62,708 bases of DNA. Origin: Escherichia phage PA16. Every line of letters begins with the position of its first letter. Positions within the stretch are counted from its first letter, which is position 1. Below, piece by piece: positions 1-6,000 of the stretch. The stretch is taken from sequence record KP682377.1. One strand, given 5' to 3'. Made by a program: the position numbers.

Positions 1-3000
1 GTTTCAACATGTCTAAGGATATGGTTTATCATTTTGAAAAATATAATTTTATTTCATCCTCCTGGTCACTTTGGGGCACGTCTGGGGCACGGGCATTAAG
101 GACATTATTCAACATGGCAACTTGAGTCACGCTGCACTCAGGCATCCATGCACCATAAACATTGTAGACCATGCTGGCGCTGGAGTGCCCCATCTGTGAT
201 GCAATAAATGTCGGGTTTGCTCCGGAAGATAAAGCCCAGCACGCATAGGTATGGCGTGACTGATACGCTTTACGGGATCGGATACCCGCTCTTTTTATTG
301 CTGAATCCCATGTCGCTCCGATGGAGCTTACCGCGTAGTTAATACCCGCCTTGTGATTCTTGCGAACGATTTGCGGACAGAAAACAAAAGTGCACTCGTG
401 CAAAATTGTTCTTCCGTACTCGCGTAATTGAACAGTGATCTGATGCTGCCTGCTAAGACGAGTAAGCATCGCCTGGTTTTTAAGTGCTTCAATTGCTGGT
501 GCCAGAAGATGTATAACCCGGTTAGTGCCTGCGTCGGTCTTTGGTAGCGTAAAATCACCTATTTTTGTAAAATTTCGTCGCACTGTTATCGTGCCAGCTT
601 TCAGGTCGATATCCTCCCATGCAAGTGCGGCAATTTCACCGTGTCGCATCCCTGTAAAAACAGCCACTGTCCAGAGGTTTTTGGTCTGTTGATGATGGCA
701 GGCATCAATGAGACGGCTAAACTCATCTCTGGTCAGTGGATCCGGCACTGGTTTTGATTTCCTCAGCGGTGTTATTGAATTAAACGGGTTTTTCTCCAGA
801 TACCCGTTTTCGGCGGCAAAGCTGAACATTCCGGCTGTTGTTGTCATGTAATAGTTCACTGTGGGTACGGTTCTTCCTTTTCGGGACGTGCTGGTTTTCC
901 TGCTTCCCTTTTCCCCGGTCAGTAAATCTTTCCTGATAAACAGCAGATCTTCTTTTGTAATCGATGACGCCAGCCTGCCAGGACCAAGCCTCGGTAGCAT
1001 ATTTTTCATCACTGATTGATAACGATTTAAGGCGTTACTACCGATTTCCATTGCTTTCAGAGTAAGCCATTTCTGTGCCAGTTCACCGACGGTGATATCT
1101 TTTTTTACCAGGCCAAATAGCTTCAGGTTAGGTGAGTCAGGGAATCGATCGGCATAATCAAACGTTCCTGTTCTGATTGCAAAGCAGACCGAAGCCCTTA
1201 ACTCACCAGCGATCTTTCTGTTTTTCGGTGTATCGGGCACGCGAAGATTTTCGCGCACTCGTTTACCCCTGTACTTAAACGTTATTCGGAGTTTTCCTCC
1301 GTGATTTTCAACGCCGGCTGGATAGGCTGAATTCGCCATTGTTCCTCCTGCGTCCAAGAGCACGCTCAGGTTATACTCTTATGGACAAGAATTAAACATC
1401 CTGAGATGGTAAGGGTTGGTTTTTGATCCAAGTGTTGATGGTAGGAAGATGATAGAGACATTCGCTGTTTTTCTTTGGCGTTCCGTCGGGGGCGATTTGT
1501 TTATATTCTCTGCCGTTCATCCACGCACTGTCCCTGGCGCGTAATATTGTTCCTTTTCTCAGGCCTGTTACAGCCATTAAAAGCTCCAGTGTTACCCATT
1601 CATTCGCATTTATCTGTACAACAGGTGTGATGACTGGCTGAATGCCATGGTTATGTTGGTTTACTAACTCGCGCATAAGTTGCCTCTGCATGTGTAAGAA
1701 AAAACCGCCATCAGGCGGCTTGGTGTTCTTTCAGTTCTTCAATTCGAATATTGGTTACGTCTTATTCGATGCGCACTCCTGGTATTTCGCCTTTTGATAT
1801 TGCTAAGTCATAAATTTGCGCGGCACTATACCCATCTCGCATCCATGAATCTAAGGCGCGAACAGCCTCGCTACGCTTTTTATCTTCTCTCTCATTTTTG
1901 ATATCAACGAGGACATCAACGCAATTAAGGCAAATGTGGATTTTGTCTTTACATTCGATCATGGCGGCTTTGCCATGATTTCCGCCACACAGTGAGCATA
2001 AATCTTCAGGGTCTGGCTGGTATTTCTGTAACGTTAGAGGGTTGAATGTTGAACAGGCCATAATCATCTCCATAAAACAAAACTCGCCGTAGCGAGTTCA
2101 GATAAAAGAAATCCCCGCGAGTGCGAGGATTGTTATTCATTGCCGATATTCACCTTTATCGCGAACACCTTTACCGGTTTATCACCGAAGTGCGGATGTG
2201 TGATTGTCTTGATTTCATATCCGTCATACGGAACATCAATTCTTCGGCTGGAATCGTCGCGCTTCGGATATCCCTTTGTGATAATCAGGCGGTCATACTC
2301 GCGGAACATAATTCGCTTATTCCAGTAGTCATTAAACAGGCGATACTCTTCCGTTTTCTCTCCGCGAATCATGGCATCGAAGTATTCACCTTTAACGGCA
2401 AGTTGCAGGTTAGCCACGGTTAACCTCCTGCGGCGGTTCTGGTAGCGGCATCCAGTGAGTTGCTTGCTCAATACCATTACCCGGCTTAATCGTTGCATCT
2501 CCGCGCCGAAAGGTGCTTCCGGTATAGCGTGCGGAGCATATTAGCGGTTCAACCAGAGAGCTATCGAAATTCACCGAAATAAGCACGTTCTGGCCCTTTT
2601 CAGGCATTCGATCACTACAGCTTATCCAACTATCCGGAGTTACCGGAGAGTTACCAGCCTCATAAGCGGATTTCATCCAGTGCGTAAGCGTTTCGATGCT
2701 TACACATCCGCAATCAACGTCTATTTTTTCTTTTTGTTCTGACAACCATTCCTGGAATGACAGCTTGGCAGTCTGGCTTGCTGGATCAATTCGTGGCAGG
2801 CCGATATATAGTGGTACATTTCCCGGCTCCATCGAATTGTCGGGACAAATAAACGTGTTACAACCATATTTAACGAGCTCAATTCCCACTGTGTCGATAG
2901 TGGCGAATGGTTCAGTGGTCAATGCAGTCAACGCAATTTCATAAGCACGGCGCTCAATATTATCTCGCACGTCCAGGCTGCCGATTCGCTCTTTGATTTC

Positions 3001-6000
3001 TTTAATCATTTCTTTGTCGGTGAACGTTGTCATGTGTTAGTCCTTATCCACTTCAACGCCATCTTTCAGCGTGATGCCGTGCCAATCATCAGCCCAACTG
3101 GTTAACCCAGGCGCATCAATGCTAGGCATATAGACGCTTGCAGTGTGGTAGCCCTTATCGTTATCAATGCTGGCAACGTGCTCGCCGTTGTATGCGCTCA
3201 GCGTGTCTAGGACACTATAAAACTTTCCTCCGGCTGCCCTGAAATCCTTTACAGCCTTCACAAGACGATTCCACGCTTTTTCCTGTTCTGGCGTCAGGTC
3301 GATTAATTCCTGCAAAGTTGCCATTTCAGTTTTCCTTATATGGGTTAATTTTATTGTGCAGTGTGTTGAACGACGCCCATACCACGTCGTTATACAACTC
3401 AATAACTAGCTCAATTATTTTCCCGATTGCCCAGACAAAAATTAGCGGGGATATCGGTGTCATCAACACGATAAACAGAATGAGAAACAAAAATTCTGTC
3501 GCTCTACTTTTTCGCGGATATTCTTTTCTGAATAATGTAGGCACATCACTCTCCTTTGTTGCTCCTCAAAATTTTATGCCCTGGCGCAAAAGCACGCGTT
3601 TTGTCTTTGCTTATTCGCCAGCCATCCTTGCGCGCCTCTTTTGCACAGCCAGCCCATGACGTACCGATATACTCACCGAAGTCTGGCGACTTATATTTGC
3701 CATCTGTACACTGGAGGCAATCACAATAGAGATGCATGGTGTAACTTGCAGCAATAGCCATATCACTCTCCTTTAGTGCGCAAGTGGTTTTTCCAGCGGT
3801 TTTGCTCCGCGCTGGGCTTTTTGCAAAAACCACAATCCATCATCCCGTAATATTTCATCAACCCCATCCGTCGGTTGCTGAGTCTCACCCACTGCCAGAC
3901 GCCAGGAGCGTTTCTACGAACTAACAGAATCTTTGCTTTACGGTTTTTCATCGTTTTGCTCTCCTGCATCTCTTTGCTGCTCGTCGTGCCGCTGCAATAC
4001 CGGTATGGCGGCGCTTTGGTGTCGGGATGATGTTCTTTGCAATTAGCGCAGAAGCCCAAAAACGAGTCGGATACGGTAACAAGCCGATACATGCCACACG
4101 CATTACTCACCTCTTTTGATGCGAATGCCAGCGGCGCGCTCGGCTTCACTTTGTTCCCAAAACCACTTGTGAAGCGCCATAAGCTTTTCGTCAATCGGTG
4201 CATATTTGCGATTAAAGTAGGCCTGAGCATCTTTCTCAGATTCGTCCGGTAATTCGCCAGGGCCAAACAGTGTGTTATAAATCCATGCTAGTCCGCTCTT
4301 AGCGTCGCCAGTTGCCTGCCATTCGATAATGGCAGCCTGCATGACCAGAATGTTTTTCCCGATTAATAGGTCCAGTTCTTTGTACCGGTTGCGGATGTAT
4401 GCATTCTCGCTTTGTAATTTTGCGTTGCGCTTTTCTGAGGCTTCAAGTAACGCCTGCTTATCGCGTAGAGCTTCTTCCAGTTCAGCAACATGGCATTCAC
4501 TATCAATAAGGTTGTTCTCTGCTGCTTCAAGCTCAACACGCAGCTTCCCAACCGTAAGCGCAATCTCCTCGTTCTCCTGGTCGCGGCGTTTGATGTATTG
4601 CTGGTTTCTTTCCTGTTCATCCAGCAGTGCCAGCACGGTAGCCGGGTTAGCCTCTGCTATGAATTCAGCGTTTGCATAAGCCTGATCATCTGATTCAATC
4701 AGGCAGTTAACATGACATTCCGCAATCACGCCACCGGGTTCTCCTTTCCATTTTTGGCAAACAAAAACTCCTGTTAAATTGCCGTGCTGGTTAACAGATG
4801 TATGCCCTACGATGTAGCTTCCTTTAGTTGCTTTCTCTGCCTTTTCACGCAGTGCCTGATAATTAATTTCGCTCACTTCGAACCTCTCTGTTTACTGATA
4901 AGCTCCAGATCCTCCTGGCAACTTGCACAAGTCCGACAACCCTGAACGGCCAGGCGTCTTCGCTCATCTATGGGATCGCCACACTCACAACAATGAGTGG
5001 CAGATATAGCCTGGTGGTTCAGGCGGCGCATTTTTATTGCTGTGTTGCGCTGTAATTCTTCAATTTCTGATGCTGAATCAATGAGGTCTGCCATCTTTCA
5101 TTAATCCCTGAATTGTTGGTTAATACGCTTGAGGGTGAATGCGAATAATAAAAAAGGAGCCTGTAGCTCCCTGATGATTTTGCTTTTCATGTTCACCGTT
5201 CCTTAAAGACGCCGTTTAACATGCCGATCGCCAGACTTAAATGAGTCGGTGTGAATCCCATTAGCGTTACCGTTTCGCGGTGCTTCTTCAGTACGCTACG
5301 GCAAATGTCATCGACGTTTTTATCCGGAAACTGCTGTCTGGCTTTTTTGATTTCAGAATTAGCCTGACGGGCAATGCTGCGAAGGGCGTTTTCCTGCTGA
5401 GGTGTCATTGAACAAGTCCCATGTCGGCAAGCATAAGCACACAGAATATGAAACCTGCTGCCAGAAAAATGCATTCTGTTGTTGTCATGCCGGGTCTCTC
5501 TCGTTTGCTTCTGCTTTCGCCGCCATCATTTCCAGCTTTTGTGAAAGGGATGTGGCTAACGTATGAAATTCTTCGTCTGTTTCTACTGGTATTGGCACAA
5601 ACCTGACTCCAATTTGAGCGAGGCTATGTGCCATCTCGATACTCGTTCTTAACTCAACGGGAGATGCTTTGTGCATACAGCTCCCCGTTTATTATTTATC
5701 TCCTCAGCCAGCCGCTGTGCTTTCAGGGGATTTCTGATAACAGAAAGGCCGGGAAATACCCAGCCTCGCTTTGTAACGGAGTAGACGAAAGTGATCGCAC
5801 CTACCCGGATATTATCGTGAGGATGCTTCATCGCCATTGCTCCCCAAATACAAAACCAATTTCAGCCAGTGCCTCGTCCATTTTTTCGATGAACTCCGGC
5901 ACCATCTCGTCAAAACTCGCCATGTACTTTTCATCCCGCTCAACCACGACATAATGCAGGCCTTCACGCTTCATACGTGGGTCATAGTTGGCAAAGTACC

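What the first reader, a model, noticed from the sequence alone, without database searches (positions are those of the whole stretch)
1762..4092. Early-left cluster of seven small unknown genes between xis and ea22
This block (zinc-ribbon protein, ASCH-like protein with GTG start and translational coupling, DUF551 protein, and four short proteins including two Cys-rich ones) is the N-dependent early-left accessory region where host-takeover and anti-defence functions tend to reside. None has a function I can assign confidently.
Basis: inference. Interest (0 to 1): 0.4.

Follow-up and report, generated by a model that had tools for sequence, protein, structure and literature searches.

The report
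Variable early-left accessory genes of 933W
This is the well-known but functionally uncharacterised block of small accessory genes between ea22 and xis of the Shiga-toxin phage 933W/Sp5: the genes are real and ordinary for a lambda-like phage, one gene model needs correcting, and none can be given a function.

Summary
The window is a 933W/Sp5-type Stx2a prophage. Bases 1700-4150 are 100% identical to phage 933W (L0063-L0068) and to O157:H7 Sakai and EDL933.

The ORFs are real, all on the minus strand, about 5-7.5 kb downstream of N and nutL. They form two units.
- **Unit A (4103-2133).** A tightly packed, translationally coupled run: a probable unannotated 51-aa basic ORF (g8), then g7 (62 aa), g6 (71 aa, Cys3His), g5 (DUF4014, membrane), g4 (95 aa, acidic), g3 (DUF551) and g2 (ASCH fold confirmed). 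Two terminator hairpins follow it.
- **Unit B (2061-1762).** g1 is a C4 zinc-finger protein whose finger resembles the ClpX zinc-binding domain. It replaces lambda orf55 ORF-for-ORF between conserved lambda flanks.

**Correction.** In most of 79 related loci a stop codon breaks that extension, and the conserved unit is the 62-aa ORF.

Each gene shuffles independently among lambdoid phages. No defence-system model matches, and anti-defence families could not be tested. The literature I could search describes this stretch only as the variable part of the exo-xis region.

Verdict: already known, function open, modest interest.

The parts
3948..4103 (-). g8: probable, RefSeq-unannotated 51-aa ORF, very basic (pI 12). 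Its ATG overlaps the ea22 stop (TAATG) and its stop overlaps the g7 ATG (ATGA).
   Evidence: Open in 32 of 32 loci that carry this sequence (13 distinct sequences). One variant has an in-frame 21-nt insertion, giving 58 aa. The start codon varies only between ATG and GTG. Synonymous to non-synonymous variant codons are 8:10 in this frame, against 1:16 and 5:13 in the other two. It matches phrog_13831, but PHROG hits are weak evidence.
3763..3951 (-). g7: 62-aa basic protein (pI 11) with C-x2-C-x12-H near the C-terminus. GGAGAG lies upstream.
   Evidence: 251 viral-contig stretches encode a relative, and its upstream neighbours vary. It matches phrog_1380 over 62 of 62 positions. Synonymous to non-synonymous is 8:8 in frame, against 5:11 and 2:14. 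PDB hits to C2H2 fingers are only at E about 0.7-1.
3546..3761 (-). g6: 71-aa protein of a widespread phage family with motifs LYCDCxxC ... A(R/K)xxGW ... APxH.
   Evidence: C13, C15 and C18 are invariant in close homologues; only C13 stays invariant in the wider 50-sequence alignment. 417 clusters at 50% identity, nearly all stand-alone proteins of 60-90 aa. Also found in about 300 large virulent phages. No Pfam family.
3326..3544 (-). g5: 72-aa DUF4014 protein with a GTG start and a hydrophobic core at residues ~16-45 (probable membrane protein).
   Evidence: Pfam PF13198 at 88.5 bits against a cut-off of 23.2. Hydropathy up to 2.7 over 19-residue windows. Synonymous to non-synonymous is 15:11 in frame, against 8:20 and 5:22.
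3037..3324 (-). g4: 95-aa acidic protein (pI 4.7), almost confined to Stx phages.
   Evidence: Matches phrog_2821 over 95 of 95 positions. Found in 103 phage records, 97 of them at >=99% identity. No Pfam, NCBIfam or PDB match.
2410..3033 (-). g3: 207-aa mosaic protein. It has an N-terminal module (1-46) shared with other families and a C-terminal DUF551 domain (135-202).
   Evidence: Pfam DUF551 E=1.8e-23. PHROG hits are split between the N- and C-terminal parts. PGAP splits the ORF into a 140-aa DUF551 CDS plus a pseudogene fragment, whereas Sakai keeps 207 aa. DUF551 is also the C-terminal domain of 'Ea22 V2' (PMC10834534).
2133..2417 (-). g2: 94-aa ASCH (PUA-like) domain protein with a GTG start that overlaps the g3 stop by 8 nt.
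   Evidence: GxKxxExR motif present (G19, K21, E24, R26). AF2 model pLDDT 84. Twelve of the 13 best Foldseek PDB hits are ASCH proteins or homologous structural-genomics chains, with probability up to 0.97. More than 672 homologues; the 120 best listed are 75-98% identical and span Enterobacterales. Synonymous to non-synonymous is 31:22 in frame, against 3:50 and 8:43. The Pfam ASCH hit itself is below threshold.
2080..2131 (-). Tandem intrinsic-terminator hairpins directly after the g2 stop, homologous to lambda's predicted t3 and t4.
   Evidence: scan. Fold of -25.3 kcal/mol, z = -5.7. 97% identical to lambda 29288-29361. The sequences match Table 4 of PMC4195576.
1762..2061 (-). g1: 99-aa protein with a ClpX-ZBD-like C4 zinc finger (C22, C25, C44, C47), then a long helix. 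It occupies the lambda orf55 slot.
1702..1762 (-). 52-nt 3' remnant of lambda orf55 (1711-1762) plus a terminator hairpin (1702-1721, lambda's predicted t5), just upstream of xis.
   Evidence: 100% identical to lambda 29103-29169. Hairpin of -14.5 kcal/mol, z = -4.1. Listed in Table 4 of PMC4195576.

Best explanation
The block is the variable, promoter-distal part of the leftward early (pL) operon, the 'exo-xis region', of a 933W/Sp5-type Shiga-toxin phage. It is a mosaic of independently exchangeable small accessory genes.

**Unit A (g8-g7-g6-g5-g4-g3-g2, 4103-2133).** This is read as one polycistronic message. Each start codon lies 0-3 nt from, or overlaps, the previous stop, and each has a Shine-Dalgarno sequence inside the preceding gene, so translation is coupled. 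Two intrinsic terminators follow.

**Unit B (g1, 2061-1762).** This is a single-gene cassette between those terminators and a third one. It replaces lambda orf55 exactly.

**Inferred regulation.** After induction or infection, N-modified RNA polymerase reads through these terminators. g1, xis and int are then expressed together with the upstream genes.

**Predicted biochemistry of the products (mostly inferred; the g2 fold and the g1 zinc-finger resemblance rest on structure models and comparisons run here).**
- g2 is an ASCH/PUA-like RNA- or modified-nucleoside-binding protein.
- g1 is a zinc-finger protein-interaction module of the ClpX N-domain type.
- g3 carries the portable DUF551 domain.
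- g5 is a small membrane protein.
- g6 is probably a small zinc-binding protein.
- g7 and g8 are highly basic, probably nucleic-acid-binding peptides.

Most likely they are non-essential modulators of host physiology or of the lysis-lysogeny timing, like the better-studied upstream exo-xis genes. None has an assigned function.
For: **Shown here.**
- Identity with 933W, Sp5 and EDL933.
- Same strand and position relative to N, nutL, cIII, bet and exo.
- Junction sequences with Shine-Dalgarno motifs and overlapping stop/start codons.
- Terminator hairpins with strong fold z-scores, identical to lambda's predicted t3-t5.
- ORF-for-ORF replacement of orf55.
- Mosaic neighbourhoods of g7 in 80 loci.
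- Only 40 phage records and 80 E. coli genomes carry the whole arrangement, whereas 3917 of 5426 complete E. coli genomes carry some piece of it.
- Coding signatures for g2, g5 and g7.
- Family or fold evidence for g1, g2, g3, g5 and g6.
- g1 homologues in Enterobacter prophages sit one ORF upstream of xis/int, and Sf6 carries a 98%-identical copy, gene 19.

**From the literature.**
- The exo-xis region is transcribed from pL and is dispensable, but it modulates lysogenisation and induction (PMC3824215, PMC4195576, PMC10789677).
Against: - No transcription or translation data for these genes were found, so N-dependence is inferred from anatomy only.
- g4 and g3 show no sequence variation in the loci examined, so their coding status rests on family membership and operon context.
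- PGAP treats the first 44 codons of g3 as a pseudogene fragment.
- The functional assays on the exo-xis region were done with lambda and phi24B, and phi24B has different genes in this slot.
- The Pfam hits for the ClpX finger and ASCH are below the gathering thresholds.
Confidence: 0.8

Rival explanations
1. The cluster is an anti-defence or host-takeover island. Its small proteins would inhibit restriction or other bacterial immune systems, or shut down host functions, early in infection.
For: - The genes sit early in the operon, turn over rapidly and are very small.
- The g6 family also occurs in about 300 virulent Ackermannviridae-type phages, which argues for a general infection function rather than a lysogeny function.
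- g4 is acidic, with pI 4.7.
- ASCH/PUA-like folds recognise modified nucleosides (the link to defence is my inference).
Against: - No similarity to any characterised inhibitor was found.
- PADLOC finds nothing, although it models defence rather than anti-defence.
- No anti-defence library was available.
- No experiment on these genes was found.
- The characterised exo-xis genes act on transcription and on the lysis-lysogeny balance, not on defence (PMC8614690, PMC9239242 title).
Confidence: 0.25
2. g1 is a moron-like lysogenic-conversion gene. In this view it is insulated by terminators on both sides, expressed from its own promoter in the lysogen, and benefits the host rather than the phage.
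For: - Terminators flank g1 on both sides.
- It is a single-gene cassette swap relative to lambda.
- It lies at the prophage end next to xis/int.
Against: - The scan found no sigma-70-like promoter between 2062 and 2140.
- The upstream flank is only terminator hairpins plus a Shine-Dalgarno sequence, and lambda shares it with orf55.
- g1 is on the same strand as pL, so read-through is the simpler source of its transcript.
Confidence: 0.1
3. Part of the block is decaying recombination debris rather than functional genes. Candidates are g3 (a fusion), g4, g8 and the 3952-4102 spacer.
For: - PGAP calls a pseudogene fragment inside g3.
- An orf55 remnant is visibly left behind at 1711-1762.
- The evidence for g8 is modest, at 8 synonymous to 10 non-synonymous.
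- PHROG families exist even for antisense ORFs.
Against: - All ORFs keep intact frames, Shine-Dalgarno sequences and coupled junctions.
- g8 stays open across an in-frame indel and an ATG/GTG change.
- The g3 N-terminal module recurs attached to other C-termini.
- g2, g5, g6 and g7 show clear conservation.
Confidence: 0.15

Closest known systems
Exo-xis region of lambda (ea22, ea8.5, orf55), and of 933W and phi24B as described by the Wegrzyn and Donaldson laboratories
   Same: - Same position between ea22 and xis on the pL transcript.
- The flanks are shared with lambda at 93-100% identity: the end of ea22, the t3/t4 hairpins, and the orf55 3' end with t5.
- The literature already describes it as the variable, non-conserved part of the region.
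   Different: - Lambda has ea8.5 and orf55 here. 933W has eight different ORFs.
- g6 shows no similarity to Ea8.5.
- phi24B has yet another set: DUF1382, DUF1627 and two unknowns.
- None of the 933W-specific genes has been tested experimentally, as far as I could find.
ClpX N-terminal zinc-binding domain (Pfam zf-C4_ClpX; PDB 1OVX, 2DS5)
   Same: - Identical C-x2-C-x18-C-x2-C spacing.
- 33% identity over about 38 residues.
- hhalign probability 92.6.
- The only PDB sequence hits from the g1-family profile.
   Different: - There is no AAA+ module.
- The Pfam score of 15.7 is below the gathering score of 27.
- The stretch that aligns with ClpX A29-G30-P31 and Y34 reads (C/G)-K-D and H in g1 (alignments).
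- The finger is followed by a family-specific long helix and a variable C-terminus.
ASCH domain proteins (Pfam PF04266), for example E. coli YqfB, Zymomonas ZmASCH and PH0355
   Same: - GxKxxExR motif.
- The predicted beta-barrel fold has ASCH structures, or homologous structural-genomics chains, as 12 of its 13 best PDB matches, followed by YTH domains.
- RefSeq names it an ASCH domain-containing protein.
   Different: - Only 94 aa.
- Pfam score 14.2 against a gathering score of 21.2.
- The profile does not reach solved ASCH structures by sequence.
- TM scores are about 0.5.
- The catalytic residues of YqfB and ZmASCH were not checked.
DUF551 proteins (P22 EaA, CPS-53 YfdS, the Ea22 V2 C-terminal domain)
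   Same: The C-terminal 68 residues match the full Pfam model at E=1.8e-23. This is the same portable domain that forms the C-terminus of phi24B Ea22.
   Different: The N-terminal part is not Ead/Ea22 or DUF550. It is a different short module shared with other PHROG families. The function of DUF551 is itself unknown.

Membership tests
Lambdoid exo-xis (early-left accessory) region | Located between exo and xis on the same strand as pL, N and cIII | tested here: met
   Gene order on the minus strand is int-xis-g1...g8-ea22-orf73-orf61-orf63-orf60a-exo-bet-gam-kil-cIII-ssb-N-nutL.
Lambdoid exo-xis (early-left accessory) region | Transcribed from pL in an N-dependent manner early after infection or induction | not testable with these tools
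   This is inferred only from the anatomy: three terminator hairpins on the coding strand and nutL upstream. No expression data were found.
ClpX zinc-binding domain (PF06689) | C-x2-C-x18-C-x2-C zinc ligands, invariant in the family | tested here: met
   C22, C25, C44 and C47 are invariant in 19 homologues. The spacing is the same as ClpX C14, C17, C36 and C39 (alignments).
ClpX zinc-binding domain (PF06689) | Score above Pfam's gathering threshold | tested here: not met
   15.7 bits against 27. The NCBIfam ClpX hits reach E 0.002-0.003, far below the cut-off.
ClpX zinc-binding domain (PF06689) | Treble-clef fold that superposes on the solved zinc-binding domain | tested here: met
ClpX zinc-binding domain (PF06689) | N-terminal to a ClpX AAA+ unfoldase module | tested here: not met
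   g1 is 99 aa and has no ATPase domain.
ASCH domain (PF04266) | GxKxxExR signature motif | tested here: met
   G19, K21, E24 and R26 are invariant in 26 homologues. The motif definition comes from my knowledge of Iyer et al. 2006.
ASCH domain (PF04266) | Score above Pfam's gathering threshold | tested here: not met
   14.2 bits against 21.2. Sixteen of 26 homologues give only sub-threshold hits.
ASCH domain (PF04266) | PUA-like beta-barrel fold matching solved ASCH structures | tested here: met
   AF2 pLDDT 84. Foldseek top hits are 2z0t, 3iuw, 5gus, 1xne and 9kyh (YqfB), with probabilities of 0.9-0.97 for the best three and TM about 0.5.
DUF551 (PF04448) | Full-length match above the gathering threshold | tested here: met
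   83.6 bits against 22, covering model positions 1-68 of 68.
DUF4014 (PF13198) | Full-length match above the gathering threshold | tested here: met
   88.5 bits against 23.2, covering model positions 2-72 of 72.
Lambda Ea8.5 (zinc-finger/homeodomain hybrid), considered for g6 | Detectable sequence or profile similarity to Ea8.5 | tested here: not met
   hhalign probability 0.5%. There is only a weak profile hit to plant ZF-HD homeodomains, E 0.015.
Known anti-phage defence system components (PADLOC) | Match to any PADLOC model | tested here: not met
   No hit for g1-g8. Only the neighbouring ea22-like protein hits a model, named DpdH.
Characterised anti-defence proteins | Homology to a known inhibitor, or demonstrated relief of a defence system | not tested
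   No anti-defence library was available, and Pfam, NCBIfam and PDB give no such match.

The most novel reading that the evidence does not exclude
g1 could be a free-standing, phage-encoded mimic of the ClpX N-terminal zinc-binding domain. It might pair with the ClpX N-domain or compete with it for N-domain-dependent substrates and adaptors, for example the phage O replication protein. That would retune ClpXP proteolysis early after induction of a Shiga-toxin phage. I found no phage protein of this kind described.
Probability: 0.12. Interest if true: 0.6.

Novelty: already known. Interest (0 to 1): 0.25.

Why it matters
These genes travel with the main Stx2a phage of E. coli O157:H7, and they are expressed (by inference) when the prophage is induced and toxin is made. 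Their functions are a genuine but long-recognised gap.

This re-analysis adds four practical things.
- A corrected gene model: a 62-aa g7 and a probable 51-aa g8, instead of one 109-aa ORF.
- Fold-level confirmation that g2 is an ASCH protein.
- A testable lead that g1 carries a ClpX-type zinc finger.
- The observation that the g6 family is shared with hundreds of virulent phages.

None of this changes the picture of lambdoid phage biology.

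Tried and rejected
Rejected on comparative grounds.
2. **g6 as a relative of lambda Ea8.5**, which occupies the same genomic slot. hhalign probability is 0.5%, so rejected. The weak ZF-HD homeodomain hit is kept only as a lead.
3. **Sequence-profile search for solved ASCH relatives of g2.** It found nothing relevant. Fold comparison was needed.
4. **PDB sequence searches for g3, g4 and g7.** Nothing significant.
5. **PADLOC and NCBIfam.** No informative hits for g1-g8.
7. **The svsR prophage sRNA paper.** Checked and found irrelevant, because that RNA lies in cI.
8. **Plus-strand ORFs 2121-2423, 2696-2944 and 3318-3659.**
   - They have PHROG families.
   - I treat all three as annotation artefacts.
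   - For 2121-2423, which lies antisense to the conserved g2, the support is that a stop breaks it in 2 of 17 variants.
   - The other two had too few variants to test.
9. **Rfam.** No RNA family in 1-8000 except the cIII thermoregulator.
10. **The afdb50 fold library** was unavailable.
11. **Structure prediction.** Both jobs went on g1 and g2, so g3-g8 were not modelled.

Full report
**Identity of the window.** Bases 1700-4150 are 100% identical to phage 933W (AF125520, same coordinates), to VT2-Sakai/Sp5, to Min27 and to the PA-series O157:H7 Stx2a phages. They are also identical to the wrbA-integrated prophage of EDL933 and Sakai. The window length, 62,708 bp, equals that of Sp5. The finding therefore concerns 933W genes L0063-L0068, which have been annotated as hypothetical proteins since 1999.

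**Anatomy.** All genes lie on the minus strand, downstream of nutL (9614-9680), N (9065-9448), ssb, cIII, kil, gam, bet, exo, the orf60a/63/61/73 homologues and an ea22-like gene (4103-4876). Reading in the direction of transcription:
- The ea22 stop overlaps an ATG (TAATG) that opens a 51-aa ORF, g8 (4103-3948).
- The g8 stop overlaps the ATG of g7 (ATGA; 3951-3763).
- g7 and g6 both end in ...KGE*, within the sequence AAAGGAGAGTGAT. This sequence supplies the Shine-Dalgarno site for g6 (ATG 3761) and for g5 (GTG 3544).
- g4 (ATG 3324) and g3 (ATG 3033) follow after 1 and 3 nt.
- g2 starts at GTG 2417 behind GGAGG and overlaps the g3 stop by 8 nt.
- Directly after the g2 stop (2133) come two strong hairpins with T-runs, at 2131-2110 and 2099-2080. 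Together they fold at -25.3 kcal/mol, z = -5.7.
- g1 follows (most likely ATG 2061, with GGAG 6 nt upstream; stop at 1762).
- A third hairpin lies at 1721-1702 (-14.5 kcal/mol, z = -4.1), and then xis.
- No promoter-like site was found in front of g1.

**Relation to lambda.**
- Window 2063-2136 is 97% identical to lambda 29288-29361, and window 1696-1762 is 100% identical to lambda 29103-29169.
- Homology stops 1-2 nt before the g1 ATG and resumes exactly at its stop codon.
- So the g1 coding sequence replaces the first ~115 nt of lambda orf55 ORF-for-ORF. A 52-nt orf55 remnant is left at 1711-1762.
- The three hairpins are the predicted lambda terminators t3, t4 and t5 of Bloch et al. 2014 (PMC4195576, Table 4).
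- Donaldson (PMC8614690) already noted two things. [quoted passage not shown] And 933W retains 'a portion of orf55' near xis.
- phi24B has unrelated genes in this slot. [quoted passage not shown]

**The seventh gene.** I fetched 80 viral contigs that encode the 62-aa C-terminal part.
- In more than 60 of 79 usable loci, the in-frame upstream extension meets a stop within 8-33 codons and has no ATG. One example is a variant of the same DNA with a stop where 933W has the E of 'KEHHPD'.
- Variant codons in that frame are 1 synonymous to 16 non-synonymous.
- The 62-aa ORF, by contrast, is conserved with several different upstream neighbours. These include a paralogue that begins with the same MKNRKAK, an ea22-like gene that runs into it, and g8.
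- The 109-aa model is therefore rejected.

**g8.**
- Its frame is open in all 32 loci that have this sequence (13 distinct sequences).
- It tolerates a 21-nt in-frame insertion, giving 58 aa.
- Its start codon varies only between ATG and GTG.
- Its stop always overlaps the g7 ATG.
- It shows 8 synonymous to 10 non-synonymous variant codons, with third-position changes most frequent.

I regard g8 as a probable but unproven small basic protein (pI 12). RefSeq leaves the interval empty. A PHROG family exists for it. However, PHROG families also exist for antisense ORFs in this region, so that hit carries little weight.

**The individual proteins.**

g1:
- It has four invariant Cys, spaced C-x2-C-x18-C-x2-C.
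- The best Pfam and NCBIfam hits, and the best PDB sequence hits, are the ClpX N-terminal zinc-binding domain; from the g1-family profile they are the only PDB hits. All are marginal.
- hhalign of the g1 family against E. coli ClpX 1-62 gives probability 92.6.
- The AF2 model (pLDDT 75) shows a small zinc knuckle, a 30-residue helix and a short helix.
- The family is narrow, limited to Escherichia, Shigella phage Sf6 gene 19, Klebsiella, Enterobacter and Hafnia.
- In Enterobacter prophages it again sits one ORF upstream of xis/int.

g2:
- It has the GxKxxExR motif.
- The AF2 model has pLDDT 84.
- Twelve of its 13 best PDB matches are ASCH proteins or homologous structural-genomics chains, and YTH domains follow.
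- Its family has more than 672 members; the 120 best listed are 75-98% identical and span Enterobacterales.
- It shows clear purifying selection.

g3:
- It carries a full DUF551 domain, preceded by a short N-terminal module shared with other families.
- DUF551 is also the C-terminal domain of the phi24B-type 'Ea22 V2'.
- PGAP splits g3 into a shorter CDS plus a pseudogene fragment.

g4: acidic and nearly confined to Stx phages.

g5: a DUF4014 protein with a hydrophobic core.

g6:
- It belongs to a large family of stand-alone 60-90-aa proteins (417 clusters).
- The family has conserved LYCDCxxC, A(R/K)xxGW and APxH motifs.
- It is also present in about 300 large virulent phages, where it is often unannotated.
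- It has no Pfam family and no similarity to lambda Ea8.5.

g7: basic, with a C-x2-C-x12-H motif that resembles C2H2 fingers only weakly.

**Mosaicism.** Only 40 phage records and 80 complete E. coli genomes carry at least 80% of the block. Yet 3917 of 5426 genomes carry some piece of it, with a median of two places per genome. Around g7, the neighbouring genes differ from locus to locus. Each ORF behaves as an independently exchanged cassette, and the repeated junction sequence fits recombination at gene boundaries (my inference).

**Interpretation.**
- The best-supported account is an ordinary one: the variable, non-essential, promoter-distal part of the pL operon. It would be expressed by N-mediated read-through and encodes small binding proteins.
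No test for it was available, and PADLOC finds nothing.
- The most interesting lead is g1 as a stand-alone ClpX-type zinc finger. However, the residues that align with ClpX A29-P31 and Y34 differ in g1, and treble-clef fingers are generic interaction modules. I give a ClpX-directed function a probability of about 0.12.

**Verdict.** The genes and their families are already in the databases, and the literature already describes the region as variable and uncharacterised. Novelty: already known. Interest: 0.25.

Noticed in passing
window 4103-4876 (minus strand), residues 145-243 of the ea22-like protein: The C-terminal domain of the Ea22-like protein ('V1' type) matches the PADLOC model named DpdH (PDLC02890) at E=1.4e-36, over model positions 13-111 of 127. 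The papers I read on Ea22 do not mention a link between an exo-xis protein and a component listed for a DNA-modification defence island.
   Followed up: no
window 3546-3761; hits H73-H90: The g6 family (LYCDCxxC ... GW ... APxH) is also encoded by about 300 large virulent phages of Salmonella, Klebsiella, Shigella, Dickeya and Serratia (150-160 kb genomes). In many of those records no gene is annotated under the match. The family has 417 clusters at 50% identity and no Pfam model.
   Followed up: partly
window 1711-1762 and 2063-2136: g1 replaces lambda orf55 exactly from start codon to stop codon. A 52-nt 3' remnant of orf55 is left, whose stop codon sits in the loop of the downstream terminator hairpin.
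   Followed up: yes
window 3750-3790, 3533-3573 and 4090-4125 (minus strand): g7 and g6 end with the same 13-nt junction, AAAGGAGAGTGAT (peptide ...KGE*), and ea22 ends with a related AAAGAGGTGAGTAATG (...RGE*). These shared gene-boundary sequences double as Shine-Dalgarno sites and may be recombination points for cassette exchange.
   Followed up: partly
window 2121-2423 (+), 2696-2944 (+), 3318-3659 (+): Antisense ORFs of 82-113 aa have their own PHROG families, with E-values of 1e-58 to 1e-67. These families were probably built from over-annotated Stx phage records. A stop interrupts the first ORF in 2 of 17 variants. The lesson is that PHROG membership alone is not evidence of a gene.
   Followed up: partly
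window 2410-3033; L001 3711-4334: RefSeq/PGAP (EDL933) splits the 207-aa ORF into a 140-aa DUF551 CDS and a 'pseudogene, missing C-terminus' fragment. The Sakai and 933W records keep one 207-aa gene.
   Followed up: partly
window 5154-5172 (minus strand): A terminator-like hairpin between the orf61 and orf73 homologues has the same sequence as the predicted t2 of lambda and phi24B, which Bloch et al. 2014 link to a drop in downstream expression.
   Followed up: no
protein P0002: A 146-aa protein on a 983-nt Logan contig combines the whole of g1 (99% identity) with a precomputed Pfam Lambda_CIII hit. It is probably a chimeric assembly or a mis-called ORF.
   Followed up: no
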